Origin: Phoronis australis
Lineage: Eukaryota > Animalia > Phoronida
Direction: 5' to 3'
DNA: 64,000 nt
NCBI GenBank assembly: GCA_002633005.1
Contig: NMRA01000198.1
Coordinates: 623,459-687,458, forward strand
How positions within the stretch are numbered: the stretch's first letter is position 1; every line of letters starts with the position of its first letter. Shown here in pieces: positions 1-27,002 of the stretch. The position numbers were made by a program, and so were the translations under genes. The notes below the pieces were generated by a model. That model saw only the letters and a list, made by a program, of their open reading frames with translations. It was not told where the DNA came from and did no database searches.

Positions 1-22
1 ATCTTCCGTAAGTAAAATATCC

Positions 23-495
23 TTGGTCCTCTCTGACCTTGAGACCTCCTTGGCCAGAGGGGTTAGTTACTGTGTCCCTAAGTGGCGTCAAATTACTGAG
101 GATCCTCGCATACTGGCCATTGTCACCGGCTATGAAATTGAATTTGAACTGCTTCCTACTCAAACACAACCAGGTACCAATGCAAAATTTTTGCCACTTG
201 AGCAACAGTTCCTGCGTAGGGAAATTCAATCCATGCTGGCTAAACAAGTCATTGAACGCTGTCCTCACTCTCCTGGACAATTTGTGTCTCCCGTTTTTCT
301 TCGACCTAAGAAAGTTGCAAATGAGTTTCGGTTTATCCTTAATTTGAAGACCTTAAACTCTTATGTTGCTTATCATCATTTCAAAATGGATACCATTGAA
401 TTGGCACTCCGCTTAGTGACGCGGGATTGTTATTTTATCAGCTTAGATTTGTCTGACGCTTATTATAGCATCCCAATAGCCAGGCATCACCGAAT
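23..495 (+). mobile_element. DIRS-type retrotransposon reverse transcriptase fragment (N-terminal RT, truncated)
   Basis: ORF 23-529 has DIRS RT motifs W..IT.D..IL..V.GY.IEF, FVSPVFLRPKK, FRFILNLK.LN, HFKMDT, SLDLSDAYYSIPI. It breaks off before the YxDD motif into Gypsy sequence. Confidence 0.85.
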
Positions 496-1200
496 AATTT
501 TCATTGGCATGGTATGCACCATGACATAGATTTTGCAAGTCCTGTGATGTGTGCCAGAGGACAATTCCGAAGGGCCCGTAAGGCACCCTTAGGTAAAATG
601 CAAGAACTATTTTACCGGATTGATGTGGACTTAATTTGATCCACTACAACCACCGAGAACACCAGGTCACAAATACATATTGACCACAGCTGATATGGCA
701 ACTAGATACTCAAAAGCAATTGCCTTGTCAAACATTGACACAATTACTGTGGCAGAGGCATTACTTAAAATGCTTAGCGATGTGGGAATTCCTCATCAAA
801 TTTGAGTGACAAAGGCACTCAATTCAATTCGGATATTATGAAAGAAGTTCACAGACTACTCTCGAAAGGGATTGTGACAACCTCAACGTATCACGCACAA
901 ACCAACGGGTTGTGTGAAAAGTACAATGGAACCTTAAAGCAAATGCTAAAATGTATGGTAGGAGAACAACCCCGCCAGTGGGATAGGTTCAGTGAGCCCT
1001 TGTTATTTGCTTATAGGGAATCTCCCATAGATGGCTTAGGCGGGTTTTCTCCGTTTTAAGTCCTGTATGGGAGGGCTGTCAGAGGTCCCATGACAATTTT
1101 GCGCGAATTATGGGCAGGTGGGGCAGTTGAAGAAGAGGTGCGCGGCACTTACGAAGATGTGCTTGATCTTCGTTAGAGGTTGCCGGAAACCTGCAAGATC
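492..1200 (+). mobile_element. Gypsy/Ty3 integrase fragment (pseudogenised)
   Basis: Frameshifted translation gives F.W.GM..D / CKSCDVCQRT zinc finger, then SDKGTQF, YHAQTNGLCEKYNGTLKQML, WD....LLFAYRE, GFSPF..LYGR.VRGP. Confidence 0.85.
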
Positions 1201-1215
1201 ACCTCTGAGACATAG

Positions 1216-2080
1216 TTAATCCTAGAGCGCCGGTACACGCATATTTGAGTGAAAGCTTCAATCACCCTAAGTGCCCATAAACACACATATGAGTGTTAAA
1301 GTTCCCAAACAGTTTTTTCCACCTTGTGACAGCTAAAAATAAACATTTTTCATACATGTGTACAAATAGATTAATGACATATACAATTAGTGTTTTTCTT
1401 TATTGAAAGTGGCCTGTTGTTGAATTTGTCGGATTTTTTTGAGAGAAGTGTTGATATTTTGGTTATAAGATGGCTGGAGTAAGAGAGAGGAAACTCAAAG
1501 TGGATACTGTTCTAGATTTATTGGAAAGCAGTGACATTGAGAGTGATTCTGACTCTGATGAGGATATTCCTCTCACTAGATCAGAAAATGACACAGAAAT
1601 GAGTTTGGAGGTTGACCCAAACAGTTTAGAGGATGCCCCTGAGATCGCTGTGCCTGCACATTTCCTGGATGCTCTTGGGGTACAACAACCGGAAACTGGT
1701 GGTTGGAGTGCTTCTGTGAATTCAAGAAACGATGCCAACATGAGATTTAAAAGCACACCTGGTTTGAAGCAACATGCCATAGATCATATAGGTGGACAGG
1801 AAGCACTCACCTCGGCAACACCCGGTGGGCTCTTCAGACTGTTTTTTCCTGACCCTTTAGTCAAGTTGATCGTTGATCAGACAAACTTATATGACAATCA
1901 TGAAAGACAGAGTGCACCCGAAAAACATAAAATGAAATGGCATGATGTAACAGTAAAGGAACTATTCACTTGGTTTTGTTTACTGTTCTGCAAGGGTCTG
2001 AACTGCAAGGGAAATATCCGCGTACATACTGGAGCCATGAGGATCAAGCACGTCACATGTATGCCCAGCATCACATGAAG
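1216..2080 (+). mobile_element. piggyBac-like (PGBD4-type) element: left end plus N-terminal transposase fragment
   Basis: TTAA at 1216-1219 followed by TCCTAGAGCGCC. ORF 1470-2078 has an acidic N-terminus then P...F.LFF.D.L...IV.QTN.Y and W.DVT..EL..WF.L, typical of DDE_Tnp_1_7 transposases. Confidence 0.75.
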
Positions 2081-2375
2081 ATATGTGGCAAAAAGGTAAG
2101 TTTAACGCAAATTGTGCAGAATGATAAATTGCAATTAGTACTATTTTTATTTGAAGCAAATGACTTGGTAACACACATTTTTTACTGCCACCTGAAAATA
2201 AACACAAGCATAAACAAAGCTACACTCATTTTGAAGTGTATGCAGACAAAATGAATAATGTAACTATGTATTTATTTACCTATTTCACGAAAGCGCCATC
2301 TTCCCGCGCCATCTTTAAATACTGATCGAAAACGAGGCACACTGACAAAACCTCGTGAGTGATCATCAGCTGGCC

Positions 2376-4800
2376 ATGGTGTAATGTGCAGTGCCTGTGT
2401 GTACTAATTCCAGAAATAACTCATCGGTAACCTTCCACACTTTTCCAAAAGAGGGAAATCTACGAAAGGAATGGCTCAGGAGCATAAAACAGGACATCGG
2501 AAAAAATTTCAATGTGAGTAATGTTATTATTAGGACGTTAACAATCGTGCTCGCGACAGAGGTCCCAGCCTGACCGGGACTTTCCCGCGTAAATCGTAGT
2601 TCGGTAAAATAGCACGAGATTACTATTTTGAGCTGTTTCACTTCCTTGTATCGAATAAGATTCAGTTTCTGGCTTTGTCTTGTTCGATACTTGTTACCAA
2701 AAATCGATCGATATTAGTTATTGCGTTCGGCATACCAGTCGCTGAATTACTGCCTCGGCTGCTTTCAAGCCAGGTCAGAGGGCAGGGAACGTTCAGGTTA
2801 ACTGTAGACTACAGTTTGTTGACCAACTTATATCTTTGAAAACACAATAAGTTTGTGATCTACAAGCAACTAATTAAGAAATTTACATTAATTCTTGTCT
2901 AGATTTCATCACATTCACCTTGTCATTTTGCAGCTGACTGCCAACACAAAGGTGTGTTCGTCACACTTTAGAGCCGAGGACTACACGTTTAATGGCTATA
3001 GTAGATTGAAGCGACTAAAACCAGGTGCTGTTCCTTCTGTCCTTGACTGGTCCAAAGAAACTCGGAGAAGAAAAGAACCAGTCAGCCGATCAACGCCATC
3101 CGTTAAAAATGGGTAAGTTCAGGTACTAAGCAGTTAAGTCACTAAAGACGTGTCTAATTACAAATGGGCAGGTGACAATGGTTTAGCTGGTCCAGTCACA
3201 TGATTTAACCTTGTCAACTATTTGATGCCCAGGAGTGGAGTGGCACTGGACTTTTGTTAGACAGGACAGGTACTGACTCGGGACAAAAAGCGACCTATTT
3301 GGAGAATGGTTCCACAAATTAGACTTGCTTTGTTCATCATAATGAGCATACCTCTAGCATGGGAGTACCCTTGGATTTGTAGTCATATTTATTGGCCTAC
3401 AATTAATTACAAGTTTTAAAAACGTAACAACAATGGTTAGTTTCTTTGTAAATTACTTGTGTTGCTAAAGCAGTTAGCTTGGAAATCAAAAACAGGGTAA
3501 TTTATGTATGAGACTCTCTACTGCTTTAAATCTATAGACAATGGTCAGTGGATCAACGACTTTTTATGATACTGTTTCATGTGACACAATGTAAAGCTTT
3601 ATTTGACCGTTTTCATTGTTATTTTCAGCACTCAGACTGAGGTTGACACAGCTACAGAGCCATTGGATTTTTACCAAGTAGCCTGTGAACTTTCACCACG
3701 AAGTGACGAGTCTTTAGAGGAAGAAGCTACCAACAGTGGTTCACTGGCCACTTCCTGCAGTCTTCCTGACCATGACTATGCTGTTGAGCCCCAGTCCAAG
3801 GACGATATGCTTGCTGCTGCCCGAGACGAGATTGTTAGATTAACGGCTAAGTTGGAGATTGCTGAGGGTAAAACATTGTTAATAGTCTAGCTGGAGACAA
3901 CAGTTCTGTGATGTTTTACACAGGTTTCAAAGACTATCAGACTCTGTTATTGTTCTTCCAGGTTATTGAACCTACTGCTGTAAACATGGTCAGGTATACT
4001 CAGTACCAGTGTCGCTTGACTGGCGAGTCAAAGCAAACACGAGTTGGGTTTTACCCTCAGAACTTATCTCTTATTGATCAGTTCACACTTGTACTGAGGC
4101 GGTTAAGAGTTGGTAAATGTGACAAGGAGCTTGCTGATATTTACCAAGTAAGCGAAGCAAACTGTGTCAAGAATAGTGTTGTCATGGGTTAATTATTTAT
4201 ATTTCTTTTTGGGCTCCCTTCCACTTTGGGCGTCTAGAGCACAAGTGGACAAGCACATACCCGATGTGTTTATTCCTAGGTACAGCAGAACAAGGGTAAT
4301 ACTAGATTGCACTGAGGTATGGGTGCAGAAACCATCAAGTTTGGTGCTGAGCTCAGAGTTTTACTCGCACTAAAGGGTAGAGCTCAAAATAAGCCCTTGT
4401 TGGAATCACTCCTTCAGGGGCAGTCTCCTTTGTGTCGAAGCTCTACCCTGGTTCGATTTCAGATAAAGCTATCACCAAAGCCTCTGGCATTTTAGAGTTA
4501 TTGGAAACTGGCGACACAGTGACGGTAGACAAGGGATTTCTGATTGGTGATTTACTTGAGCAGCATGGTGTAAATCTTGTTATCCCTGCCTTCTTATCAG
4601 AACGTTCACAGTTTGAAGCTGGTGAAGTGTCAGAAACTCAAGCAATTGCTCGTCTTAGAGTTCATGTGGAGCGGGCAATCCGTAGGGTTAAATGCTTTGG
4701 CATATTTAAGCGTGTTATACCACTTGCACTGACTGGCTCTGTAAACCAAATATGGTCTGTATGCTGTCTTATAACCAACTTCCAAGGTGACTTATTCTAA
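2376..4800 (+). mobile_element. ISL2EU/Harbinger-type THAP + DDE_Tnp_4 transposase pseudogene (with introns)
   Basis: THAP pieces CAVPVCTN..FHTFPK..LRKEWL (2376-2512, stop at codon 3) and KVCSSHF..LKPGAVPS (2934-3112). Then FYTGF, ILDCTE..QKPSSL, SKLYPGSISDK, DKGFLI, IARLRVHVERAIRRVK.F. Several stops and frameshifts. Confidence 0.85.
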
Positions 4801-5699
4801 GTTAGCACTGAATCATTGTTACATGTGCTGTTAATGTGTAGTGTCGCTGAGAACTGCTGTTACATGTATGTGACCAACTTGTAAATAATAAGATGTACAA
4901 TGTGACCTTGTTTAATAAGACATTTAAAACTTCATGCACTGAATTCACATAGGCAGAAAAAATGAAACAGCCAGAGTGCGAGGGAATATTGAGTTTACGA
5001 ACTAACCCCAGTAATTAACATGCTGCTGAAACAAGATTTAACAAGTTTCAGTTTGTGTGTGTGGGGTGGCCGGTGCCGTCGCAATCGGTCTCCTCAGAAA
5101 TTCCGAGCCCCCCCGCCTATATTTTAGGCTGGATGCATCTGCGCAATCATACTTTGTGCGATTCCCCGAGACACAATGTTGGCCTCCCTTATGATATCCT
5201 TGGTCCGCCACTGATTTAATTATTTTTTTGGTGGCAGCACACCAAAAATGCCGCCCATGAGAGGCATTCAAATTCTCTTAGCTGTTGAACATGTGCAGTT
5301 CAGTCTCCGAAGTGGGTCAGTCAAGTTCAATCTGGTTGATGTGGTGTTGACGATACTAAGGGCTGAAATGGCTGCACGTTTAAAGAGACTTAAGCGATAC
5401 TGCCCACTTCTCAAAAACGTTATATAATTGGTATTAAAATAACGCAAACACATGCAGGGTTCGACTTCATGAATTGATTGTATTTTAGTGATATCTATTG
5501 ACTGATAAACCTTATTCCGTGTTCCAGAGCAGCAAGTACTGCACAGTACAAAGTAAAGAATATCTTTGAAGGAGCACTTCTTCTGGTTTAGCTAACCACC
5601 AAGTACATTAAAGAGTTGCTCCTAGTGCATGACAGAAAGTGAAAGAGGTGAATAAGGTGAAAACTTGCACTAATACGTATTTCTTGCCTTTTCACAAGT

Positions 5700-6104
5700 C
5701 AACATTGAGCAGCAAAGACTGCAGATCAATCCAAAGTACCCCTACCTGGGCAGCAGTGTTGACGGTGTTGTAATGTGCGTTAAGTGTAGTGAAGGTGTCA
5801 TCAAACTAAAGTGTCCGTATGGCTCGGATAAGTCACCGTGGAGAAATGTGCGAAGGATGCAAACTTTTCTTAGTGATGGTGAAGTTTTTCTTAAGTATGG
5901 ACACAACAATCCGTATCAGGTAATGGGAGAGACGGCCATTTGCGACTTAGAATGGCCGATTTTGTCGTGAGGACAAAGAAAGGTATTGCTGAGGAGCGTG
6001 TTCGTTTCGACATAAATATGTGGGAATTTGATATATTGCCAGGAACAAGGCCGTTTTGTAAGGATTTCATCATCCCGGAATTATTTAGTAGTCGTGTACA
6101 TAGA
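5700..6104 (+). mobile_element. YqaJ-like (lambda exonuclease family) accessory ORF fragment of an ISL2EU/Harbinger-type transposon
   Basis: LQINPKYPYLGSSVDGVVMCVKCSEGVIKLKCPY ... YQVMG..AIC...W.DFV ... ERVRFD ... FIIPELF. It joins directly onto Gypsy RT. Confidence 0.75.
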
Positions 6105-6785
6105 AATTGTTAGGAGACATGTCAAATGTCGACAATTTCGTTGATGACGTTTTGATTCACACGTCAAATTGGGATAGTCACGTGAATCAAATGAAAGTTT
6201 TGTTTAACAAGGTTTGTAAAGCCAACCTAATCATCAAACAGTCAAAGTGTTTTCTTGGGTATTCCGACATTGAATTCACTGGACATCATCTTAAAAAAGG
6301 GTTTCTCATGACGAAGCAGACAAAACTGAAAAAATGAAAGCCACTGCAGTCACTTAGACCAAGCGTCAACTTCGTTCAATTTTGGGACTAATAAATTATT
6401 ATCGGAAAGTCATTAAGGATTATTGCGACAAGGCTCCTGCCTTAACGTAGCTAACCAAGAAGGGTAAACCTGATAAACTCAAATGGGGTGAAGAACAAGT
6501 TAAAGCATTTGAGACAATCGAGTATGAGCTTCGCCAGGGGCCAGTATTGAAACTTCCTAAGACAGAGGAAACCTTTCATTTGCAGACGCCACAGACGTTG
6601 GTTTGGGTGCTTGCCTTATACAGATGCACGAAGGCGCATTGTTTCCTGTAGCATAGGCTATTAAGAAGTTAATAAGTAAACGCGAACAGATATATTCAGT
6701 TATAGAACGTCAGGGCATGGCAATCTGCAGGGCAATCAATAAGTTGAGAGTCTACCTTTATGGGAAAGAATTTGTGCTGCTGTTA
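6105..6785 (+). mobile_element. Gypsy RT C-terminus / RNase H fragment
   Basis: NFVDDVLIHT, KCFLGY..IEF.GH, QLRSILGLINYYRK, LTKKGKP, PVLKLP, F.LQT, GLGACL.Q, YSVIER, YLYGKEF. Confidence 0.85.
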
Positions 6786-7479
6786 TGATCAAACTTTCCC
6801 ACCTATATTATGTTTGAGTATAAGTATTCTGTTAGCTACGCAAAGCTTGACAACAAGCTTGCTACAGAAATATTGCAGATATTCTTAAGAGATGCTACTG
6901 GCTTGCTCAGAAATATCACAAGTACTAGTAATTTATGGACTGAATTTTAATCCGATACACTGTAGCAGGAATTCAAGGGGATACATTGTATCTAGAGCTC
7001 CATGGAATAAATTCTGATTAAAATAATTTATCTGATGTTCAATAGACTTCATGATTGTTGCGAAGTATCTCATCAAGTGGACACTGCTTGGAACACTGGA
7101 TCGCACGATCAAGAAAAACTCATCACAGACAACAAATGTAACACTGGATCCAAGGACGACGCCAGGTACGGGAAAACGTGATCACAGACTGATTAGATTA
7201 ACCTTCTTTGTAAATGTTTACGATCTTTCATTTAGGGAAATTTAAACATTTTATCAATATACTCATTAATATAGTTACCCAAATCAAATTGTGTCGTTTC
7301 AACCGCCTACCCGCAAGATATTCACCACGTGACAGTACCGAGATGATTACATCTCTAGTATTATGCCTCGACTTGGTTTCATAAGTTAAATCAATACTTA
7401 CATGTACATGACTCTTCGAACACTCCTCCACGCGAACATGAAGATTACGATCCATTATTTAAACTTCACCCAGTATTGA

Positions 7480-8170
7480 AAAAATTAGAGAAAGATTTGG
7501 AAAGGTATACAACACAGAGCTTAGAATTGAAGCTGATTGGCTTCAAGGGTAGAATATTTTTTCACCAATACATGCCAGCAAATCTATCAAAATGGGAAAC
7601 CAAGTATGGGAGATTTGTAAATCTGACATTGGATGCCGCCTACATTTCGGCTCTGGAAAGAAGCTAGACATTCGCAGAGAATATGGTTTAGGGTATGATG
7701 TTATGTGAAAACTATCTGAGCCAAACCACAAGTATCCTCGCTTGTATTCTGATCGCTTTTTGCATCGGTAATTTTAGCCGAACACTTAAATTTGGCTAAC
7801 ACCTTCATTTGCGGAACGATTATGAATAATAGAAAAGGTCTTCCAGCATCGGAACGACAAGCGAAATTGAAAACAGAAGAATTGGTACTGGTACAGAAAA
7901 GCAAACTGCTGGCAACTATTAACAAAGACAAACAAAAGTTGTAGTTTCGTCTTGCCAGTCCGCAGTGAAGAGAACCCTACCATTATCTTGGAATACAACG
8001 CAAATATGGAAGGGTTGATAAGAGTTATCAGTACCACACTTATTATCCTGTAGGGCGACCCACTAACAAATAGTAGCAGTACTTGCTGTGGTTCATTGTA
8101 AATTTGTCAATTCATGGATTTTGTATTCACGTTCATGGCATGACACCCGTTCCCCAAAAGGCTAGGACCA
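7480..8170 (+). mobile_element. piggyBac transposase fragment (decayed relative of the 8441-9900 copy)
   Basis: IGFKGRIFFHQYMPA, GLGYDV..KL, DRFF.S, CGTI..NRKGLP, YNANM.G.D. Colinear in DNA with ~8990-9640. Confidence 0.8.
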
Positions 8171-8213
8171 CCTCCGTGGCTACTTTTAGGTGGCACTTTT
8201 ACTTTAATCTTTT

Positions 8214-9910
8214 CTAACCCTTTAGCGCCCAATCCTCCTGCAATCGCCCTTACATACCTTTTTTTTAAAACATATCCCACAATTCTTTAATCTTTAATTC
8301 TCACAAGTAAAACGAAACCATTTGGTCACATGACTGTTAGTCAACGTTTTAGTCACGAGATTGAAGATTTTTAGAGTTTTTGCGTGCCTTTTATTGAAAA
8401 TAATTAGTGACAAGTTTTCTTTTGTTACTTCCAGCAAACTATGGATTCGTCTTCAACTAACAGCAAGGATTTTATTGGTTTTACTGATGCAGAAATTGAA
8501 CAATCAGGTACTAGAGTGGGGGATATAAATGACGAGTCTGATGTTGAAAGTGACGTTGGTTTCGAGGAACTGAATATATTTGACGAACCAGCTCATGACA
8601 ATATAGGTGCCAATTGGAGTAACCAGCTCCAGGATTTTCGAAATAGGGATTTTTCTGCTGATACTGGTCCTGTACATAACTTAAATGGAACTAAAACACA
8701 ACTTGACTACCTGTCCTTGTTTTTGCCGTCCTCATTTTTTGAAAACGTTGCTGAAGAAACTAATAAATATGCCACTCAACAACAACATCTGCAGATGAAG
8801 TCAAAGCATATTTTGCAATTAACATTGTCATGAGCGTCAACCAGCTACCAAGACTGTGGTGTTACTGGAGCACTGATCAACGGTACCGAGATGAGTACAA
8901 CTCTAGGATCATACCTCCACTTTGGTTTCAGAAGTTACATCAGTACTTACATGTTCGTGACACCTCGAACACACCTCCACGCGACCATAATTACGATCCG
9001 TTTTTTCGCCAATATATGCCAGCAAAACCAACAAAATGGGGCATCAACGTATGGGAGATCTTTGAATCCAACAGTGAGTATAATCTAAAATTTGATGTCT
9101 ACACTGGGAAGAAGCGACGTGGTTCCAGAGAGTATGGTTTAGGGTATGATGTGTGGAAACTATCCGAGCCATACCACAAGTATCATCACCTATATTTAGA
9201 TCGTTTTTTTATCAGTAACTTTAGCTGAACACTTGAACGTGGTCAACACCTACACATGTGGTACCATTATGAATAACAAGAAAGGTCTTCCACCATCAGT
9301 ACGAGAAGCAAAATTAAAAAATAAGGGGTGCAGGTACAGAAAGGTAACTTGTCGGCAACTGTTTACAAAGACAAACGCCAGTTAACATTTCTCTCCACAT
9401 CTGCCTAGACATGCCACGGTGAAGGGAAACCTAGTGTTAACATGGAGTACAATGCCAATATGGGAGGGGTTCACAAGAGTGATCAGTACCGCGCTTATTA
9501 TCCTGCAGGATTACCTGGCAAGAAATAGTGGCGGTACTTGTTGTGTTCATCATAAATTTATCAATAGTCAATTCATGGTTTTTTGTATTCCCGTTCACGG
9601 CACGATCATCCTAACCCAAAAAGCTACAACCATCTCCGGTTTCGAGTGGATGTCGTCGAGCAATTGGTAAATGGTTTTTCATCCCGAAAACACAGATCCG
9701 GCAGGAGGTCCAGCAGTTATGGTGCTGGAGATGGTGTAATTTAGCAAATGTTCACACTGTTAAAAAAATGGAGACAAAACATGTCACGAGTGCTTTAAGG
9801 CAGGGAGAACAACACCAGCTGGATGACAAATTGTGTCCACATTCAAATGTGGATTTTGCAATGTTGCCTTGTGCAGAGTTGGTTGTTTCACTGCATACCA
9901 TGATAAGTAC
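8214..9910 (+). mobile_element. piggyBac-like (PGBD4-type) element with decayed, internally deleted transposase
   Basis: Left end CTAA|CCCTTTAGCGCC. ORFs give LDYLSLFLP..F..VAEETNKYA, YWSTD, QYMPAKPTKWGI.VW, YTGK, LYLDRFF, and a C-terminal Cys-rich C..C..LC...CF..H segment near 9780-9900. Confidence 0.8.
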
Positions 9911-10586
9911 AAATAAGGGTTATTCACTGACTGAGAGACTGATACCAACTAAGCGGAAGTGTGAAGTGCACATTTACTTGCTGATTATGTAATATATACC
10001 TGACTCTTACCTGTGGGACAAACGACAGTATTGCTATTAATCAGGAGTCATTTCTAATACTGTATGTCCAATTTCTATCTCCGATTGTAGTTATTCACAT
10101 TTATTTGGTTTCAAGATAAAAACAGGTACGTTGGGAGTTAGCAGAATCGCACGTAAATTTTGATGCTACCTGGCACACGTGAATTTAACATAAATGCTTA
10201 TATAATCTTGCAGATAGAAGATTTCATGACAGATGGACTTTCTCAATGTGTAGAATGAAATAATATTATTAAATATTTTTAGTAAACAAAATTGTTTTGT
10301 TTTACAAGTGAACTACTAAAACATAAAAGATAAATTTTACCTGAAATTAAAATCTTTCAGGTGTCATACCTGACCAAATTGGTAATATGTATTTGTAGCA
10401 CTTTACCTCATACATTCTTGATCCATGTTTCATCTGTTAATCAGTTGGTGCACGCCCAATCTCAATAGGCAACTGACACACCACAGGTTGTCATTGTTGG
10501 TCTAGTTCATTGTCACTTCCTGTAACTGACTATATCTGTGCTTCATTACTTGTTGCTGGGCCTAGCTAGGTGGCCACTGTATTCTC

Positions 10587-10632
10587 ACTTCTGAAGATGG
10601 TGTTGAATAAATGACACCGAAACATGTCAAGT
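10587..10632 (+). ncRNA. Minimal type I hammerhead ribozyme motif (Penelope-like element type)
   Basis: ACTT-CTGAAGA-T-GGTGT(loop)ACACC-GAAAC-AT-GTC-AAGT. Intact CUGANGA/GAAA core, stem I ACTT/AAGT, stem II GGTGT/ACACC, palindromic minimal stem III ACATGT, GUC cleavage triplet. Confidence 0.75.
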
Positions 10633-10899
10633 CTTAAAACTGTTGTTGTTTTCTTTAATATATGCTGCTACTTGCTATCATGGAGTTCTATAGATTCTTT
10701 TCCATCTTGTAATGTAGGACAACAATAATCAGTTCGAATTCATTTTTAATGTAATGAATTCTCCTTTTTCTCCTACTTCTGGGTTTCTTATTTCAATATT
10801 CGAACTTCAAAACGAAATATCTATCCGTCAGACCGATAGCGGCGGCCACTCACAACACCCAAAAACACAACGCTGAATATAACATCCCCGCTACAATAT

Positions 10900-11200
10900 T
10901 ATAGGTATGAAACCAGCAGCATCGAGAAAGAACTTTGGCATTGTGTAAAAGCCCAGCAAGTAGCAGGGACGAAGAAGCAGTGTGTCTACACAGTCGATGT
11001 CATTTTGAGCTTAAGAGGGGGTGTAAAAGAAATGTAAAAGAAATGCAGTGCGAAAGTGCAGCACACATGGGCTCTGATGCCCACTGCAAACACTTGAATG
11101 GTCTCTCGCACAGTCTCATTCACTTTACAACACAAAGATCTTGAAAGAGCAACAGACTTGTATGGAGACATTGCAAAAGTTTCATAAAGCAAAAAAAGTG
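10900..11200 (+). mobile_element. SWIM-zinc-finger N-terminal fragment of a YqaJ-type transposon accessory ORF
   Basis: KEMQCESAAHMGSDAHCKHL followed by QTCMETLQKFHKAKK resembles the CxCxxG...HCKH / CT..LQ.FH pattern of these ORFs. Degenerate. Confidence 0.5.
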
Positions 11201-12062
11201 TGTTACTTCACCTGTTAAGACTAAGGCTTGAAAGTAAGTGTAAGACATAGTGAGCAATCTATTGCTTCTCAGCTCACTATAACCATACACCCTTACAGAG
11301 ACTGACGTACCAGGTTGTTCCTAGCATTGTTGTTTTCATATACACAACTGATCTTTTTATTTTGAGCAGGTTCTAAGCCACTTCCCATGTTACTGGAAGT
11401 CCTTAGTAAGAGAAAGAGTCCCTCTCTACTGACAGAGCATGTTCAAGCTACTGCATCAGTGACAAACAGCACTGTGCTAATTGATAACAGATGCTAGTGA
11501 ACATCTTTATCACTTGCACAGAATCTGTGATAACCATTCATGTCAGGGTGCACTGTGTGCAGACTATCAGAGTAACAATTTTGTTGTTAACCTCTTTGTT
11601 AGGAGTTAAGTCGCCAGAAAACTTCAGCCAGTTTCTACATCGTTTCTTCTTTTATTCTAATATCTCTCACGTTCCTTAGACACGTTTGGGAAAGTCAGAC
11701 TATGATAGTGAACCCGATCTGAATTTCGATTTGGATGAAAGCGACCTTGACAACAAAACACTGGAAACAGATTGAAAAAGAAAACAAATTTTTCAGCAAT
11801 GTGCGCGAACCACATCTAGGAGGTGAAGTGATGAAAATATGCGCAATGACACTACCATTCCGTACAAAAGAACACCAGAACTGTTAATGCGCCATGTCCC
11901 ATGTTGTGAGGACGATTTGTGTTCCACAGTTCTATGAATTGTGATACAAGTCATTGGGCAAGTCAACCTCTCATGAGAAAAAATTATGCAGGCAACATAC
12001 AGTAATCTGCTACAATTCTACTTTAAAGGAGCAAGACGGACTTAAATGAGGTTTCCGACATT

Positions 12063-12539
12063 TTGAGCCATCGCCGGGACGCCTGGCTCGAGGAGAGCAC
12101 ACTGAAATCTGCGCAAGCAGCCATGGCACATGCCGTGGTGCCGTTGGCAGGCCTACTCAATACCTTTGTTTCAACTGAGGCACGGAAGTTAGACACCCAG
12201 GCCCTGGTTCACTACACTGTTGACTCCAGAAGTATGCTCAGTTACGCCAGTGGCAAACTTAAAACAGTTCGACGAGACATCATTAAGCCATATCTCAATG
12301 CGAAGTATCATTCCATAATCAACAAGGCACCGACAACATCTACCCTGCTGTTTGGGGAAGACCTCTCCGATAAATGTAAACAGGCACAGCAGGCCTTGAA
12401 CCTGGCCAGGACACCTGGGAAGTCCTCGACTAACACTTACAAATCGAGGCCGGCTCCATATCCTCCGTCATACCGGAAGGCCTACCAGCGCCAGTATCCA
12501 GAGAGCAGCTACAGGCCTTTTTTAGGTAAGCCCATATAG
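12063..12539 (+). mobile_element. DIRS gag-like ORF fragment
   Basis: RRDIIKPYLN.KY, TS.LLFGEDL and terminal RPFL are typical of the DIRS ORF1 C-terminus. Confidence 0.7.
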
Positions 12540-12544
12540 CTCAG

Positions 12545-13515
12545 GGCTTATCTTTTCTTCAATCACTTGTAGACACTAACCTAAGTTATAGTGCAGTCAA
12601 CACTGCCCGGTCTGCCTTATCATCATTTTTTCCCTTTTCTGCAGGCTTTTATTTTGGAACACATCCGGATGTGACCTGGTTCATGAAAGGGGTAGCAAAT
12701 CTTAGGCCGTCAGTGCCTCGCTATGTAGACACTTGGAACACCAACGTGTTGTTGAATTTACTGAAGTCGTGGACTCCGGCATGGAAGTTGCCACTTGATA
12801 AATTGTCTATGAAAACAGTTATGTTAATTCTACTGGTGACTGGCCAGCGGACGCAAACCATTTCAGCTTTAGGGGTGGAGAAAATGGAAGTGTCTGCTGG
12901 CAAATATGTATTCAGTCAGTAGGAAGGACTTGAAACAAGGACGTTTAGCTCACAAACCTAACTTATTACAGTTGAAGGCATTTCCAGATAAGTGTCTTTG
13001 TGTTCATTATTACTTAACTGTCTATTTAGAACGTACCTTAGATTCTAGGGGTAGTATTAAGCATTTGTTTCATACTGTTAAGAAGCCGAGGAAGGGTGCC
13101 ACTTCTGATACCATTCGTAGATGGATCAGGTTTGTTCTGGAACTATCTAGCATTAATGTTTCTACTTATGAACCAGGTAGTGTCTGCACTGCCAGCTTCA
13201 GTAAGGCGAACTCGGCAGAAGCGTCTATTGAAGAAATCTTGACTGCTGGAGGTTAGTCTAGAGAGTCGACTTTCTCGAAATGTAGAAAACCTATGTGTAA
13301 GAATACCAATTTTGCTGATTATGTTCTACAATGAACATATGTTTGTTTTACCTGTCAACCCTTTGTGATTTTGGTTGCAATGTTTGGTATTTGGTTTAAT
13401 ATAGATATGAAACTGGATTTTCTGTGCTCTCATCTTTCAAGTCTCATGGCAGCACTGGGGGATTCTGGGAAGGAATAAAATTATTCAATTAGACCAACTT
13501 ACGTTAAGTGAAGGA
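12545..13515 (+). mobile_element. DIRS tyrosine recombinase fragment and 3' terminal region
   Basis: YSAVNTARSALS, FMKGV.N.RP..PRY..TW, K..ML..LVTGQR.QT, LKQ.R, LCV...L..YL.RT, TIRRWI, IL..GG*S.ESTF. Followed by a DIRS-like terminal AATAAAATTA...ACTTAC motif. Confidence 0.85.
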
Positions 13516-13524
13516 TGACTGAAT

Positions 13525-13935
13525 AATTTTGTTGTACACCAGATGGATGTAAAAGCATATCTGAACGCGCCCATTGACTGTGAATTGTATGTTAAACAAC
13601 CAGAAGGTTTTGAGGTAAAAAGTGATATCGGTGAAAACTTAGTGCATAAGTTGAAGAGATCATTGTATGGCCTGAAGCAAAGTGGGAGAAATTGGAATAA
13701 TTTGCTTCATTCACATTTGGTTGAACAAAGTTTCTGTCAGTCAGTAGTAGATCCATGTGTTTGCACTCAAATTTCCGACAGCGAAGTGGTCATTATTGTT
13801 ACATGGGTAGATGACATCATCATAGCTGCTAGTTCTACCCCAGTCTTGAAAATATGAAAAGAGATTTTCAGGATGAAAGATCGCGGCCAGATTTCATTGT
13901 TTCTCCATGTAGAATTTGAACACCATGAGGGAACC
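13525..13935 (+). mobile_element. Copia/Ty1 reverse transcriptase fragment
   Basis: HQMDVKAYLNA, YVKQPEGF, KLKRSLYGLKQSGRNW, DPCV, WVDDIIIA, F.MKD.G. Confidence 0.9.
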
Positions 13936-13939
13936 CTAA

Positions 13940-15327: not shown

Positions 15328-18300
15328 TTATTCAGGACATGGCAGAACTTTCAAAATCCAGTCTTTCAAGGACAACACCGACTCCGTTTTCAGTTCATGG
15401 TAGCCTTTAAACTGGTGGAACTCCGTGTCAACACCCAAAGCCTTCATGTTTTGTGCAGTCTGTTCTCCCCAGTTGTACATCACCATGGGGTCTGATGTAT
15501 TGTGCGACACAAAGAGACGTGGCAGAGACGATTGCTTGGCCTCCCTCACAGCCTAGGCAACAACGTAATAGGTTACAGAACCCCCGCAATAACCAATCGA
15601 GTCTTTTCCAAAAAAAATTCCCTCAACATTAATGAAGAAATTTTTTACGTACAAGGCCAATGGGTGCACTAAAATGACAGAACGTCAAAATACAGATCGT
15701 AATCATTCCTTACAAAGGAGAGGTGGAATACACAGAGTGGTTTTTAGACAGCCAAGTCACTTCTTTCGGTTCTCTCAGCATAAACCAAGATCAAAATAAG
15801 GAATGTGCCCAGTGGGACAACAAATTTAACGTTTTTTTTTCAAAAGTGCCTTAAGCATTTACACTGAAACTAAAATTCTTCAGATTTAACAAAGTGTGAA
15901 AGCAGAAAAATAAACATAAAATGATGACAGTGCTCCTAATTAGAATCTTAAAACATCTAATGGAAGTTAAAGATTGATAACCTTGTTATTCATAGCATTG
16001 TCATTTCAGTTTCATAATAAAATAGTGGTTACATGATACAAACCTGATACACCAAGGAATTCTGCGCCAAAAAGCTTGACATTGCAAAACAGCCTGCTAT
16101 ATCTGGATGGTGGCGGTAAACAAAGTGTAATGCCATCGCTCCACCCATTGAAAACCCACCTGCAAGACAAAGGCATACTACAGGTGCCAATCAAATAACA
16201 TGATAAAGAAAGAGACAATGACATACACAGAAATATAAGTCACCAATACATTAAACGGAAAGCTTGTAATGACATGAAATTGAAAAAAAATATATAAAAT
16301 ACAAACAGAACAGATAATACATTAAAGCTCATTAATGACAAAATCCATTCAGGGCCAGCAAGGGTGTTGACACAATTGTATTCTAAAACAAAACAACAGC
16401 ACATTCCTTTACTGCAATAGGTGATCAACCAAATAACCATTGATTTCAAGTTGTTCAACCTACCAACGATAATATTCTTTTTAGCTATTCCCTGAGACAG
16501 TTCATAGTCAATCAAACCATTCAGCGTTCTTGCCATTGAGTCAATGTCAGCCACATCTTCAGGAACATTGGGCTTGACTTGAACCCGGTCGAACCATACT
16601 GTTTCTATTCTACCCCTGTGAGGAGTATAGGGCCTGAAACAGATTAGTATTTACTATCTACCATCTGAAAGATTATCCATCATTTTCATTTCATTAGGAA
16701 AGTAGGTAATTTCCCACCCATGCTTCAGAGAATTGCAAACCTGTCATGAAATGGCAATCAAACAGCAAGAGCTATAGAGTTAATGAGATACAGCCCGACA
16801 TGAAATGGACAAAATCATCACTATAGGGTGTCGCAGTAGTCACACCTGTCAAAAAACCAATGTCAGTCATGACATTCTTGTCAGGAATACATCTGCCATT
16901 TTTCATAATTCTTTTAGAAATTAGGAAACTACATAGTTTACTTACCTATGCGTAACATCGGCAATTTATTTTGGACTTTTGTTTTCTTGAAAAGTTCCTC
17001 CAACAGAGGTCGCATGTATGCATTAATGATTTTCAAGCCCACATGGGATGGTGGTAAAGATGATCGCTCCTAAGGAAACGAAAACATTGATCATCAGCAA
17101 GATGAGCAGTAACGTCTTAACACTGATGAACTTGAAAAACTAAACGCTTTGACATCTTAATTGATGTTTTTGTTATTAATTTAATGATCATTTTTCATAT
17201 GTCTTGATGAAATGTGTATGGAAACGCAGGACATGTGACCTCTGCGGAGAAAGCTTTTCAAGAAAGCAAAAACTCAAAATACATTGCCAACGTTCCGCGC
17301 AGTAAGTTTTGTCATTGCTGTTTATTTTTAACTCACTTCTCACCTCACGAGGTAATGAATAAACCATAGATTTGAAATCAGAAGAAACATCAAATATGTT
17401 TGGGCCGATTCCGATAAGAGTGGTTATGGGATTCTGAGACACAAATGCCTTCAACAGAACATACTTAAAGAACGGCTTCAATTTCAAGCACAACATTCAT
17501 TTCATGTCCTTATACGTTGACGGTCAACAGATACCTTCCAAACCACTTCAAGCAAAGTCTGACCTTGAGCTTATTTTCGGGTACATGAAAAAGTTAGCAA
17601 GACGAAGGTAATGACATTAATTGTGCAGATTATTCAAAGGGAAACACGCTATTTGCTTTTGATCTCTTCCTCAACCTCTCTGATGGGTATGATTTGAACA
17701 AACGACGAAACATGCGCATTGAGGTTCATTTTGACCAACCCTTGCCAAGTGCCATCAACACGCTCGTGTATGTCAAGTTTGAAAAAGTGATCGAAATTGA
17801 TCACTCCAGGAACGTTCTGTTCACCTTGAACAGCATGAATATGTTAGAGATTGAATCCACCTTTTCACAGGATCCTTTTGTAAGACCAGTATCAAAGACC
17901 AGCTCAAAGATGATGGCATGAAACATTATCCCAAGGGTCTACAGTCCCAGTAATAAACCTGGCATGCACTGGGTTGCCGTGTACCTGACGTACAACAAGT
18001 GTGGAGAATATTTTGATTCCTATAGCATTGTCCCCTTAATCACAGACATATATGCGAGTTTTGTGTTGCATGTTGAACACACATATAAAACCACTATTGG
18101 TGTCTGTGCAATAAAACCAGATAAACGTCACAAAATACTGTTCAAGTGACACTTTTTTTCTGTTTATTCCATCTGTTTGCTTTTAGAGCATGATGTAAAA
18201 AACGGGACTTGGAATGAACAATGGCGAAAAACGCGGAAATTTTTACGGCCCACAACATGCGCGCAGCCAGCCTTGAAAATGTAGGTGAGGACCTTTTGCC

Positions 18301-20836
18301 GACGAATATCGAGAGGACTAAAAAAAAAAAAAACGGTACCACCTCCAGAAGCGTGCATCTGCGTCTGTCTTAGTTCGTCCGCTGCTCCCACCTCCAAACA
18401 TTTTTGGCTGCAGGGTCGTAGTATTTGTCACCGCGGTTTACAATCACACGACCCGCCATTGAGGAAATCCACCACGCTATCCCAGATGCCCCGGCAATGT
18501 TGACAATTTACGTTCCTCCGAAACATAAAGAGCAACTTCCGCTTTTCGAGGTGAAAGTCGTCGGCAACGCGGCGGTAATGAAACAAATTTGCCGCGGAAA
18601 TTTTATATCAAATCCGATTTTTTTTACGCGGAAATATAATAAAATACGCAGACAGAACATTTGAAAAAAGCGGAAATCCACGTTTCCGCGGAAAATTCCA
18701 AGCCCTGAAAAAAGTAGGATGACGACACATCCTCAGGTGCAAAAAACGACGACTCCTCACTGACCTTTGGTTGACCATTTCCCGAGACGTGGCCCCTTTC
18801 CGGGCACCTCCAAAGGACCTCAAAGAAATCCTCGGAATAATACCTCTCAGGGCCATATATTACTACTAATGTGCACCCACAGTTGTATAAGTGGGTGAAT
18901 AAAAATACAAGCAACACAAACAAACCTTTCAGGTGCTGTTGGATAAATCAACCTTATATGCTTGAAGACTAGATTATGATCCAGTACACTCCGTACCCAT
19001 GACATAACTCCAGGACCTGTATCACCTGAAACCAAACATTCAGTTTAAAATGAAGTTTGTATAAAAACAGCTGTTGAATTTTCAGTCTGAAAGCACTTTT
19101 TGATTTGCAAACTTGAGAGACAGGTGCTCCATCCGTGCAGCCACCTCTTGGCTGGCAGGCAGAATCTCTCTCCATAAACTTTTATGCAATAGTGTTTGAC
19201 ATCGTAAGAGAGAAATTTACACAGAATATATTGTCTAGCGTACATGGCACATTAGGATGTACCACCTACTGACCTGATTGCTTATATAGCCTACTCTTTA
19301 TGAAGTTAATGATTTTGTTAGAACTTAGAGACTTGCAGAGGAATCCAACACAGCTTTATAGATAGCCAGCCAGCTAGCTGTATGAAGACTGTCATCAAAA
19401 TACCGCTAGGTAACACTGTGTGCATTTCTTCCGTAGACCCCGAAATTGCACACAGCCAGGGTAGTTCTGCTCGTCACCTCGCAGTGAAACTTGTATCAAC
19501 ATGTAAAGCTAACGACCGGATGGGGTGTATGCAAAATCTGGGAATCAACCGACACTCACCTAGCCCATTACAGACGTTTAAGTGAAAAACAATGCAATAA
19601 ATGTCATTTTCTTACATAACTCTCCGCCTTTTCTAACAATGAAAAAAGTATGTTGTCGTTTTGAAAGCAGTATGGTCGTGCCACGCACACGCGCCATTTC
19701 CTAAATTTTTGCGACATCTCTCGGGAGATGGTGATAGCTTGGCAGCAGCAAAATATCTTCTGAAATTCGGTTTTTCGGAATCAAAATTCTAAAAACTCAT
19801 AATGAAGTGAAACCAGTTCCAATAATTTCCAATAATTTGGTGTGATGTGTATGCAACCTCGTGAAAGAACAACAGTTGATTGAAGAACCGGCGAAAAAAG
19901 AAACTGGCCAAAAGGTTACGCAATATTTCATGGTGCCGAAAGCCGTCGCTAAAGATCGCTCCACAACTTTAGCAGCAGAATAACAGTAGAATGCCATTTT
20001 TTTTCCAACACTGTTAAATAATTTAGTTTACTCAAGGAAGACTGTAGCTTTTTATGACACTAATTTTGTGTCAGATTTTATCTTACCACTTTTTTACCCA
20101 CAGCAGTGCAAAGCTGTATATTTAGTATACAGCTTTGTACCAAAGCTACATTATAAACTGAAATTAATATTGTCTGTTACAGCTAAACAAATATTTATGC
20201 AAACCCATACTCCACAACAATCAGTTTTGTTGTAGAATTCCAACATGCAGTAAAGTACACTCAAAATAGGAAAAACCACAAGGGGGCACCGTGGGACCCA
20301 GCCACAGGATGAAATATTAAAACGACAGAGACCGGTCCCTAGCTTCAACATGGCCGCAGGTGAATAACAGCAATGCCACTATTCACTAAAAACTGGTTTG
20401 AGGCAGCCATTTTGAAGAGGGGCCAGTCTACGTATGGATTTGGGGGTAAAGCAATTTACAGACATGAGACATGTTATCTAACTACACAGACACCGGCGTC
20501 CTCAGCTTATGATCGTCCCTAATACACTATATGTATATTGGGGGCGATCAGAGGCAGATGACGTCTGTGCACAGGTCAAGCGTGACAGGGCTTGGCAACT
20601 TAGCCTCAAGGCAGAGGCGATCAAGTCTAAGAATCTCGCGGAGGCGAATAACAAGCAAGGCGATGCCACCGCGTAAGCACGCGACAAACTTGATGCAGAA
20701 TAACTAGAAATCGCATACTGGGGCCAATAAACGAAAACGTCTTACATGAACCATGCAAAAATATTAATGCTGCACTGTGTTTTGGGTTTGTTTGCGCGAC
20801 CACGACGGTGCGAAGCAACTTCGTGGAGGCAGCCAT
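15328..20836 (-). CDS. LYPLAL1: Lysophospholipase-like protein 1 (acyl-protein thioesterase family alpha/beta hydrolase), copy A; 5 exons, 233 aa
   Basis: Exons 20836-20746 (91), 19025-18926 (100), 16633-16464 (170), 16159-16044 (116), 15552-15328 (225). All GT-AG and in frame. Motifs IFLHGS, YPTAP.RPYT, VWFDR, GGFSMGG (nucleophile Ser), SHNTSDPMV (Asp), GYHEL (His). Confidence 0.92.
17230..18060 (+). mobile_element. Maverick/Polinton remnant: major capsid protein C-terminus and cysteine protease N-terminus
   Basis: NMFGPIP.RVV.GF..T.AF...[57 protein letters not shown], followed by [10 protein letters not shown]...GEYFDSY. Lies in LYPLAL1-A intron 2, antisense to the gene. Confidence 0.8.
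19363..20148. mobile_element. Non-autonomous DNA transposon, AcademH-like family 1, copy 1
   Basis: TAGCC...GCTA termini, subterminal hairpin CAAAGCTGTATA..TATACAGCTTTG, degenerate 9-bp flanks CTTTATAGA/CATTATAAA. Closely similar to 58707-59456. Confidence 0.7.
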
Positions 20837-21775
20837 ATTCCCACAATGCCTCATTCAAATTCCTTCGCAGTGCCCTCATGTGGCAAGAGTGGTTGCGATT
20901 CCCATGACCGCCCAGCGACTGTTGAGAAAACTGAGGACATCGGCAAGGACTATAATAACCGTGCCGAATATCGGGAGCCAGACAAAGAAGTGAAGCCACG
21001 ACGCGCCCTAGTCCGTCAGCCAGGGTCCCTGTCAACCAGCCGACCGAATGTTCATGAGTAAAATTGCCCATCTTTCCAGAGATTATTATTTTTTGTTTGT
21101 TATTTTACATTCATATTATTTACCGTTGTCATTCACAACAAATTACATCTAAAAATTCTAAAATTCACATATATACCGTCTCCTTTTATCTCATTTAAAG
21201 CTGTATTTTGTCCTGCTATCTTACTAAAACAGTCGAAATAGACCTTTTACTGTCATGAAATAGATCTCATATTCGTTACCATGATACCATTTCATTTTTG
21301 TTACCAACATTCAAGAACATGATTGGGATAGGACAACCCTAAAATTGCTTAATCGAAAATGGCCGTGTATGTATTGTAGGTGGTTTGTCCGGAAACAGAA
21401 TCTTGTCGTGGTAAAAAATATTACGTACGACACCAATTTTGTGAGCGTAAATACGGTCTAGTTCGGCTGTTTGAGGTGAGTTAAAACAGGGCAAAATGCA
21501 CCATTTTTACAGGTTTTTTTTATCAATCAGTTCAAGGGTTCAATTACTTGTCATTTTCTTGGTTTCATTAGTTGCGGTTCATTTAGTTCGCGCAGTAGCT
21601 TCAGTCCCGTTTATTCCTAGTATTTCACCGGCTCATTTTATTGTCGCATTTCACAACACCGATCATTTCTTGAGTTTTATAGTTTTGTTTAAATTGTACC
21701 AATTTACAGTTTCTTCATAAGTCAGGTTTTAGAGATAATTTCTCAGAAGTTCACACCAACCCCCGCACACTGGGC

Positions 21776-25740: not shown

Positions 25741-27002
25741 CAAGCTTGTGTATAGCCACATTCTGGGGTGAGGGGGGCACGACTCAAAAATTCTAGTACC
25801 AGTGTTAAAAACTGCATTTTGCCCTGAGAACTTGCAAATGAAAATGCCAAATAAAGACTATGGCCTAAATCCTTCAGATGCAGCTAGAAAAAACTGTTTT
25901 CATGTAATGCTCTTTATACCACACTTGTACAAACGCACGTGCAAGACGTGAAATAACTGGTCTACTGACGAATTAAGACGCATGCCATGGACTACTTTCT
26001 CTGCACTGGATCACTGTCTCGAAATTCCCACTTATCTGGGTCAACAGCTGATTAACAATGTTTACCGACAGACTAAAATTAAAAAAGAACAATTGAAAGT
26101 AACCTAACACATATATTGCAATCATACTTCACAGTAATTACCAAAACATTGAGACCAATGCAGTACGAAGCAAGAATGATTCAATAAAAATTTTCGATCG
26201 GTGCAAGTTACAAATGAAATAGTAGGTGACTCGTCCGGCGAACTCAGTCATTGGGAAGGGGACAATACTCGTTTACCAGTTTGGGTACAAACAAAAATAT
26301 GCATTCTAACAAATCAAAATAAAACAGCTAAATAAATTCGCAGGAAAATATAGATGCAAACATCGCTTTTCTGCAATTTCATCAATATCGTCTGCTCACT
26401 CTCCGCTGTCCGACTGAGTCAAGTTGGCTTGTGTTAGCGTTGACCTGTTTACAGCTGAATTCGTTGTAATTCCAGCTCCATAGTTGTCAAAACAGTTTCA
26501 TGAGTATTAAAAGTGTGTTTACCTTGTTCTTATCTTTTCTGCTAATTTGAAACTTGAGAAATTAAAGATTATCCACCGATTCTGCTCTGCTGTTTTCCTT
26601 CGACCTAGATAATTTATGTTAAACGTTTCATGACGGGTATTCCTATGCGAGAAAGAAATCTAGTTCGGGCAAAGAAACACGATGAAAAATGCCAAAATGT
26701 GTGATATAAAAAAGTTATACGACATGTGTTGAAATACAGGTTGTGATTTGGTTGAGGCATGATCATTCATCCCATAACCCTATTTTTATTAAATTAAGCA
26801 AGTGTAAAAACTTGGATCACACTTCCAAGAAAAAAATTGATATGACTAAGTTAAGTGTTTTAAAAACATCCACCCTGCAGAAGATATTTTGTTCTGAAAC
26901 CCAAGGATTGGAATGATATTTAAATTTTTAGTACAAACCCACATGAAGTAGTTATTCCGTGAATCATTGTCCTATACTGAAAAACAATGATAAGTGCCTA
27001 CA

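What the first reader, a model, noticed from the sequence alone, without database searches (positions are those of the whole stretch)
1..13935. Strand-uniform, scrambled transposon mosaic: candidate flamenco-like uni-strand piRNA cluster
Seen: about a dozen fragments from at least six superfamilies (DIRS RT, gag and YR; Gypsy IN and RT-RH; Copia RT; three piggyBac pieces; THAP-DDE; YqaJ; SWIM; Penelope hammerhead) are all coded on the + strand, often butt-joined. With ~10 independent insertions, chance co-orientation is about 2 x 0.5^10. Established: uni-strand piRNA clusters such as Drosophila flamenco are dense TE graveyards oriented antisense to the precursor transcript. Inference: this is a minus-strand-transcribed piRNA precursor locus, probably extending left of the window.
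Basis: partly seen in the sequence, partly recalled or inferred. Interest (0 to 1): 0.8.

Follow-up and report, generated by a model that had tools for sequence, protein, structure and literature searches.

The report
One-way transposon pile behind duplicated gene
Just downstream of a nearly silent duplicate of an ordinary enzyme gene in an invertebrate genome, 14 kb of broken pieces from many unrelated transposons all carry their coding strand the same way, which likely makes the stretch a source of transposon-silencing small RNAs (piRNAs), although bulk RNA shows it almost untranscribed and no small-RNA data could be tested.

Summary
Twelve decayed pieces (DIRS, Gypsy, Copia, piggyBac, ISL2EU, YqaJ, SWIM, a Penelope-type hammerhead) fill about 77% of 1-13,935 and all read on +. 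No transposon family scores on the minus strand (0 of 142 segments). In 18 of 18 related ISL2EU loci that keep their second gene, it lies opposite the transposase. Here that minus-strand gene is missing, while YqaJ and SWIM pieces lie on +, so the bias follows coding strand rather than insertion polarity. The pile begins 1.4 kb past the stop of an intact, minus-strand LYPLAL1 paralogue, the layout of downstream-of-gene piRNA clusters. Against this, three stranded RNA runs show no continuous minus-strand transcript (about 9 minus against 2 plus read pairs, p 0.07-0.15), and the paralogue is nearly silent there. It is not a flamenco member: DNA transposons dominate and Gypsy is about 13%. Best reading: a one-strand piRNA cluster, likely germline-restricted or decaying (0.55). 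This is a known kind, and this scan has already noted the same layout in at least five other genomes.

The parts
2..493 (+). DIRS-type reverse transcriptase fragment, cut by the window edge
   Evidence: tblastn to P0001 43% over 161 aa, E 1e-37; RVT_1 E 0.014
494..1212 (+). Gypsy-type integrase fragment, broken by stops and frameshifts
   Evidence: rve_3 E 0.019; tblastn to an integrase ORF of L007 E 1e-10
1216..2075 (+). piggyBac piece A: TTAA and a terminal-repeat-like 5' end, then the N-terminal transposase
   Evidence: DDE_Tnp_1_7 E 1e-4; end sequence read directly; naming it a piggyBac end rests on recalled knowledge
2274..4800 (+). ISL2EU-type THAP-HTH-DDE transposase gene, near full length, two introns kept, broken by stops; the convergent second gene of the family is absent
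   Evidence: THAP E 7.5e-9 and 9e-6, HTH_Tnp_4, DDE_Tnp_4 E 3e-29; intron 3112-3628 spliced in 10 reads; 41 relatives
5633..6110 (+). 3' half of a YqaJ (lambda exonuclease-like) gene; ISL2EU second-gene type or KolobokE
   Evidence: Pfam YqaJ E 0.024; tblastn to the L002 second gene E 4e-7; own HMM iE 6e-6
6111..6785 (+). Gypsy-type RT C-terminus and RNase H fragment
   Evidence: RVT_1 E 4e-6, RT_RNaseH E 5e-7
7332..8176 (+). piggyBac piece B, internal transposase, 73-82% identical to piece C
   Evidence: DDE_Tnp_1_7 E 2e-6; self-blastn
8214..9990 (+). piggyBac piece C: decayed 5' end (CTAA, then CCCT) and most of the transposase
   Evidence: DDE_Tnp_1_7 E 5e-21; end sequence
10440..10684 (+). 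multi-copy repeat with a minimal type I hammerhead (core about 10586-10634), Penelope-like
   Evidence: sequence read directly; ends from loose read ends; read variants at 10584 and 10586 extend helix I; architecture as in PMC4209133 (passages); not in Rfam
10911..11141 (+). degenerate SWIM zinc-finger exon, probably from an ISL2EU-type second gene
   Evidence: motif; own SWIM HMM iE 0.056, top hit in the window; weak
12027..13490 (+). DIRS piece: gag C-terminal half joined directly to a decayed tyrosine recombinase (RT missing), then 3' non-coding end
   Evidence: gag E 7e-5 to P0001; Phage_int_SAM_4 E 0.018; PHROG integrase E 0.02
13519..13935 (+). Copia-type reverse transcriptase fragment; right edge of the pile
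   Evidence: RVT_2 E 4e-24
15328..20838 (-). LYPLAL1 paralogue 1: five intact coding exons (about 20741-20838, 18934-19025, 16466-16633, 16047-16160, 15331-15552); candidate promoter donor for read-through
   Evidence: Abhydrolase_2; human LYPLAL1 3U0V E 4e-13; exons; depth about 0.5 or 0 in RNA
17359..18146 (+). Polinton/NCLDV-like major capsid fragment followed by a protease-like stretch, in an intron of paralogue 1 and antisense to it
   Evidence: ESM Atlas 0.97 to double-jelly-roll and Capsid_NCLDV clusters, with low recognition value, so a lead only; translation; the protease label is recalled and unconfirmed
26004..34400 (-). LYPLAL1 paralogue 2, the expressed copy; served as strand control
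   Evidence: four spliced junctions, all on first-mate-plus reads

Best explanation
The stretch is a pile of decayed transposon pieces whose coding strands all face one way, and it is likely a one-strand piRNA cluster that would be read on the minus strand, antisense to every piece, to make silencing guides. Shown: the pieces, their common coding strand, the missing minus-strand half of the ISL2EU element, the scrambled order, and the intact minus-strand LYPLAL1 paralogue ending 1.4 kb upstream in the direction of the predicted transcript. Inferred history: elements inserted as DNA in the ordinary way (introns kept; piggyBac pieces start at TTAA plus terminal repeat), then deletions trimmed them, and parts antisense to the precursor were kept while sense parts were lost. 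Inferred transcription: most likely read-through from LYPLAL1 paralogue 1 in germ cells (about half of the weight given here), otherwise a separate promoter between 13.9 and 15.3 kb. Inferred output: the precursor is cut into piRNAs that target live relatives, such as the spliced ISL2EU transposase message seen in the RNA.
For: 12 of 12 recognisable pieces are on +, and 0 of 142 minus-strand segments hit a transposon family. All matches from an ad hoc library of 126 ORFs from 41 loci are on + and lie in 1-9.2 kb. In 18 of 41 ISL2EU relatives the second gene is found, and in 18 of those 18 it is on the opposite strand (several of these loci are near-identical, so independent cases are fewer). 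Here no minus-strand remnant follows the transposase. The boundary is sharp: 13 transposon-family segments in 14 kb against 1 in 50 kb at equal thresholds. A relative at 95% or more identity to the ISL2EU transposase is transcribed sense and spliced in 2 of 3 runs, with fixed differences from this copy, so a live target exists. Stray reads in the low-copy bins lean to the minus strand, about 9 pairs to 2. The same layout is documented with small RNA in the slug Arion and, downstream of genes, in mammals (PMC11615739, passages). Antisense insertions in host 3' UTRs suffice for piRNA production in flies (PMC13226689, abstract).
Against: No continuous minus-strand coverage in three stranded runs, of which about 18-19% of each was read. 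Mean depth in 12 low-copy bins is 0.11 minus and 0.02 plus; 3 of the 12 bins are empty in all runs; the strand lean is not significant (p 0.07-0.15); similar stray depth occurs in some intergenic bins. No coverage joins paralogue 1 to the pile, and that gene is itself near silent. Paralogue 2 does not read through (empty bin 22,002-22,668). Two AATAAA signals lie on the minus strand at 14,684 and 14,691, between gene and pile, and the minus strand of the pile is not depleted of them (13 against 7 on plus). The pieces are old and full of stops, whereas mollusc clusters are enriched for young elements (PMC6128900, passages). The YqaJ piece could come from KolobokE, which encodes this nuclease downstream of its transposase domain (PMC9587614, passages), which weakens that part of the coding-strand argument.
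Confidence: 0.55

Rival explanations
1. The stretch lies in a long minus-strand transcription unit (extended 3' region or intron of a non-coding or upstream gene). Sense-oriented insertions were removed because they add splice or poly(A) signals; the antisense pile has no piRNA role, or is a dead former cluster.
For: The two transposon coding pieces seen elsewhere in the window are also antisense to their host genes: capsid-like on + in a minus-strand gene and THAP on minus in the plus-strand TTLL5 gene. The pieces are decayed and the locus is near silent.
Against: Ordinary intron bias is partial (recalled, not tested) and does not explain 77% coverage by coding fragments; real introns in this window hold almost no coding fragments. 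No spliced read spans the pile within 1-20,000.
Confidence: 0.22
2. An ordinary transposon graveyard, for example a heterochromatin edge or insertion hot spot, in which the shared orientation is chance or is inflated by local duplication.
For: Only 9 pieces are both solid and surely independent; piggyBac B and C are 73-82% alike and adjacent; the stretch was picked after seeing it; the genome background is unknown.
Against: Chance is 0.004 or less per such pile. The scan has noted 12 such piles in at least 5 genomes (unchecked notes, and selected for this pattern).
Confidence: 0.12
3. The pieces are cargo gathered in one orientation by a single large mobile element (Helitron-like capture, or template switching by a reverse transcriptase), whose own ends lie outside the window or have decayed.
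For: The pieces are butt-joined and scrambled, and no element resumes after an interruption. Capture in a fixed orientation would act on coding-strand transcripts.
Against: The transposase keeps its introns and two piggyBac pieces begin at their target site and terminal repeat, which fits ordinary DNA insertion. The cargo is transposons only, with no host exons. No carrier gene was found.
Confidence: 0.11

Closest known systems
piC-DoG read-through piRNA clusters of mouse, human and hamster (Konstantinidou et al. 2024, PMC11615739; passages read)
   Same: Densely packed transposon fragments starting right after an intact host gene and antisense to it.
   Different: There read-through RNA and piRNAs are shown; here neither is. 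The host here is an invertebrate, the content is mostly DNA transposons, and the upstream gene is a near-silent tandem duplicate.
One-strand piRNA clusters of the slug Arion vulgaris (same paper, Fig. 3O as described in the text) and mollusc clusters (PMC6128900, passages)
   Same: Minus-strand piRNA source over densely packed plus-strand fragments (slug). Snail clusters are enriched for DNA transposons, and oyster class 2 clusters for Polintons. The host here is probably also a lophotrochozoan.
   Different: Mollusc clusters favour young elements; these pieces are mostly decayed. No piRNA data here.
Drosophila flamenco and flam-like clusters (van Lopik et al. 2023, PMC10643416; passages read)
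   Same: Transposon fragments on one strand.
   Different: Flam-like loci are Gypsy- and env-enriched, with strand bias driven only by Gypsy, and large (flamlike1 about 560 kb). Here Gypsy is about 13%, all classes share the bias, and only 14 kb is visible.
Antisense 3' UTR insertions that trigger piRNAs (Rafanel et al. 2026, PMC13226689; abstract and outline only)
   Same: Host-gene transcription through antisense transposon sequence as the predicted trigger.
   Different: Single insertions of one retrovirus in flies, against a dozen pieces of many classes here.

Membership tests
flamenco / flam-like cluster | dense transposon fragments on one genomic strand | tested here: met
   12 of 12 pieces on +, 77% coverage
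flamenco / flam-like cluster | enrichment of Gypsy (env-bearing) elements, with bias driven by Gypsy | tested here: not met
   Gypsy about 1.4 of 10.8 kb annotated, DNA transposons about 6.7 kb (from the coordinates); no env hit
flamenco / flam-like cluster | large size (hundreds of kb) | tested here: inconclusive
   14 kb seen, open at the left edge; no genome or neighbouring record
any one-strand piRNA cluster | uniquely mapping 24-32 nt RNAs from one strand, 1U bias, phasing | not testable with these tools
   no small-RNA run was listed
any one-strand piRNA cluster | long precursor transcript antisense to the transposons | tested here: inconclusive
   no continuous coverage; about 9 minus against 2 plus pairs, p 0.07-0.15; tissue unknown, about a fifth of each run read
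piC-DoG | transposon-dense interval directly downstream of and antisense to a host gene with intact coding sequence | tested here: met
   LYPLAL1 paralogue 1 intact, stop 1.4 kb from the pile
piC-DoG | read-through RNA past the gene's poly(A) site into the interval | tested here: inconclusive
   not seen, but the gene itself has depth 0.5 or less in these runs
piC-DoG | piRNAs from the host exons and the downstream interval | not testable with these tools
   no small-RNA data
ISL2EU transposon (piece 2274-4800) | THAP + HTH + DDE transposase (PMC4482050) | tested here: met
ISL2EU transposon (piece 2274-4800) | second gene with a YqaJ domain (convergent in 18 of 18 relatives) | tested here: not met
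   no minus-strand remnant after the transposase, so this copy is truncated
ISL2EU transposon (piece 2274-4800) | GG-starting terminal repeats and AT target duplication | not tested
   ends were not mapped

The most novel reading that the evidence does not exclude
A tandem duplicate of a housekeeping gene (LYPLAL1) was co-opted as the germline promoter of a downstream piRNA cluster in a lophotrochozoan, and the cluster is edited after insertion: sense-coding halves of captured elements are deleted and antisense halves kept. This would extend downstream-of-gene clusters beyond mammals, and two-gene convergent transposons would give a sequence-only test of such editing.
Probability: 0.22. Interest if true: 0.65.

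Novelty: new member of a known kind. Interest (0 to 1): 0.38.

Why it matters
How piRNA clusters get a promoter and come to hold only antisense sequence is open outside flies and mammals. This locus gives a testable case: a defined candidate promoter (a near-silent gene duplicate with an expressed twin as control), a live target (the spliced ISL2EU transposase message), and a natural test of whether the strand filter acts at insertion or afterwards. If no piRNAs map here it is an ordinary graveyard of little interest.

Tried and rejected
No whole genome was held, so left extension, copy number of junctions and the genome background were not measured. An exact junction pattern found nothing in metagenome contigs. 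No RNA holder was listed for 5,000-14,000; runs came by species label only. Viral-contig scans for the capsid-like, recombinase and protease-like pieces found no confirmed relative. The SWIM search of cluster representatives returned one repetitive, unrelated protein. PDB sequence searches for the YqaJ, integrase, protease-like and recombinase pieces gave nothing useful. A longer-protein search with the last LYPLAL1 exon found nothing. Rfam finds no family at gathering score in the window and only two chance rows in 1-16,000. A stretch at about 4,900-5,030 on the minus strand looked by eye like the tail of the ISL2EU second gene but scored below zero against tail and SWIM models, so it was rejected. 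Insertion of processed cDNA was rejected as the general route because introns and element ends are kept. No matching 3' terminal repeat was found for either piggyBac start within 1-20,000 (the 20-base probes included flank, so this is a coarse test). The stretch 6,786-7,330 and the gaps 4,801-5,632 and 11,142-12,026 stay unassigned. Poly(A)-signal depletion on the predicted precursor strand was looked for and not found. Supplements of PMC4482050 were listed but not read; they may state ISL2EU gene orientation directly.
Full report
Setting. The window is animal DNA (about 39% G+C) with spliced genes. No assembly was held. Right of the finding lie two tandem LYPLAL1 genes on the minus strand and TTLL5 on the plus strand. 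Summed tblastn scores of 11 named TTLL5 proteins put Lingula first (901 bits), then Owenia, Capitella and two nemerteans (847-859), ahead of hemichordates (773-790) and of echinoderms and fishes (710-733). The host is probably a lophotrochozoan; this is a score ranking, not a tree.

Observation. All 125 plus-strand and all 142 minus-strand stop-to-stop segments of 30 aa or more in 1-14,200 were scanned with Pfam. The plus strand gave RT, integrase, RNase H, piggyBac, THAP, HTH, DDE_Tnp_4, recombinase SAM and Copia RT families. The minus strand gave no transposon family, nor did minus-strand reading through stops in the unassigned gaps. DIRS RT and gag were confirmed against P0001, integrase against an ORF of L007, and YqaJ by Pfam, tblastn and an HMM. 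The SWIM and recombinase pieces are weak. The hammerhead has the conserved core and a palindromic helix III as described for Penelope-like elements (PMC4209133, passages). Reads from other copies carry two changes that extend helix I, but Rfam and single-sequence folding do not recover it, and that it marks the element's sense strand is recalled. Twelve pieces cover 77% of the stretch; 9 to 12 independent pieces give a chance of 0.004 to 0.0005 before any correction for selection. Outside, 139 of 139 plus and 150 of 159 minus segments of 52 aa or more (segments with N left out) gave one transposon hit, a THAP on the minus strand in a TTLL5 intron. At those same thresholds the pile gives 13.

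Anatomy. The order is scrambled: integrase before RT, DIRS RT 12 kb before a gag joined straight to the recombinase, YqaJ before SWIM. No element resumes after an interruption. The insertions were DNA-level: the ISL2EU transposase keeps two introns, one of them spliced in reads, and two piggyBac pieces start at a TTAA-like site followed by similar terminal sequences (the identification is recalled). The pieces therefore most likely came in as ordinary insertions and were then cut down by deletion.

Coding strand against element polarity. ISL2EU elements carry a THAP-HTH-DDE transposase and a YqaJ gene (PMC4482050 and PMC9179366, passages; neither passage gives their orientation). Among 41 loci related to this transposase, 18 show the second gene and all 18 have it downstream on the opposite strand. 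Several loci are near-identical, so independent cases are fewer, and many of the other 23 are short contigs. In the window the near-complete transposase has no minus-strand partner at tblastn E 1 or by HMM, while YqaJ and SWIM pieces lie on + with no minus-strand transposase beside them. A bias in insertion direction cannot give this; loss of sense-coding parts after insertion can. Caveats: internal deletions are common anyway, only three pieces bear on it, SWIM is weak, KolobokE also encodes such a nuclease (PMC9587614, passages), and one borderline minus-strand score (iE 0.048) overlaps the plus-coded YqaJ/RT junction.

Neighbour. LYPLAL1 paralogue 1 has five open coding exons with the GFSMGG motif and ends at about 15,330, pointing into the pile 1.4 kb away. 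A capsid-like fragment in its intron is also antisense to it (a lead only). This is the layout of piC-DoG clusters (PMC11615739, passages).

RNA. Three raw-read runs of the same species label and one contig run were laid on 1-20,000, and the three raw runs on 20,001-40,000; about 18-19% of each raw run was read. The libraries are stranded: every listed junction read of minus-strand paralogue 2 has its first mate on + (10, 6 and 27 reads at one junction), and all 10 junction reads of the plus-strand transposase have it on minus. Paralogue 2 is expressed (depth 5-29 over its last exon and 3' region). Paralogue 1 has depth about 0.5 in two runs and 0 in the third, with no listed junction. Depth in the pile is concentrated in repeats with fixed differences from this copy (DIRS RT, both strands; ISL2EU, sense and spliced; the hammerhead repeat, both strands), so it comes from other loci. 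Leaving out the 9 bins with such reads, 12 low-copy bins give mean depth 0.11 for minus-strand RNA and 0.02 for plus, about 9 pairs against 2, p 0.07-0.15 (pair numbers are estimated from depth). There is no continuous precursor and no read-through in these samples. Tissue is unknown, and precursors are expected to be scarce in steady-state RNA (recalled), so this lowers the reading without excluding it. The minus strand is not depleted of AATAAA (13 against 7), and two such signals lie between gene and pile.

Comparison. Flam-like clusters are Gypsy-driven (PMC10643416, passages); this pile is not, so it is not filed there. It resembles the slug cluster described in PMC11615739 and mollusc clusters rich in DNA transposons (PMC6128900, passages), except that its pieces are old. 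Host-gene transcription through antisense insertions is enough for piRNA production in flies (PMC13226689, abstract only). Paper searches (listings only) showed no description of a cluster in brachiopods, phoronids or nemerteans, but the host is not identified and the library is incomplete, so no absence from print is claimed. Earlier notes of this scan report the same layout in 12 findings from at least 5 genomes, two of them downstream of octopus genes (unchecked). None lies near this place, and none was found with the ISL2EU words.

Verdict. The feature is real and unlikely to be chance. It most likely is, or was, a minus-strand one-strand piRNA cluster (0.55), with read-through from the LYPLAL1 duplicate as the likeliest promoter. 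Function is untested and bulk RNA gives no clear support. New member of a known kind; interest 0.38.

Noticed in passing
window 47,711-47,825 and 49,515-49,592; 50,923-51,027 and 52,268-52,375: TTLL5 has two places where the same protein stretch is matched by two separate exons: candidate mutually exclusive exons in the catalytic domain.
   Followed up: no
window 15,328-20,838 and 26,004-34,400 (minus): Tandem LYPLAL1 duplicates, both intact, with very different expression in the three runs. Both keep a similar short motif just before the start codon that resembles a ZNF143 site (recalled).
   Followed up: partly
window 17,359-18,146 (+): Polinton/NCLDV-like capsid fragment and protease-like stretch in an intron, broken by stops and frameshifts.
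   Followed up: partly
window 1-450: Two runs hold abundant minus-strand (antisense) RNA of a closely related DIRS RT copy with fixed differences from this one, so an antisense DIRS transcript exists at another locus.
   Followed up: no
window 38,322-40,148: Non-coding element with 30-base terminal inverted repeats and internal 54-base repeats; multi-copy, with reads on both strands.
   Followed up: no
window 31,239-31,683: Near-perfect 445-base palindromic element (fold-back MITE-like) in an intron of paralogue 2.
   Followed up: no
window 13,929-14,056; 23,289-25,740; 32,280-32,930: A degenerate repeat family with many short internal units, all copies listed in one orientation; one copy abuts the right edge of the pile.
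   Followed up: no
window 44,164-44,433 (minus): THAP fragment in a TTLL5 intron, antisense to the gene.
   Followed up: no
window 6,786-7,330: Unassigned stretch with broken reading frames between the Gypsy RNase H and piggyBac B; no family found.
   Followed up: partly
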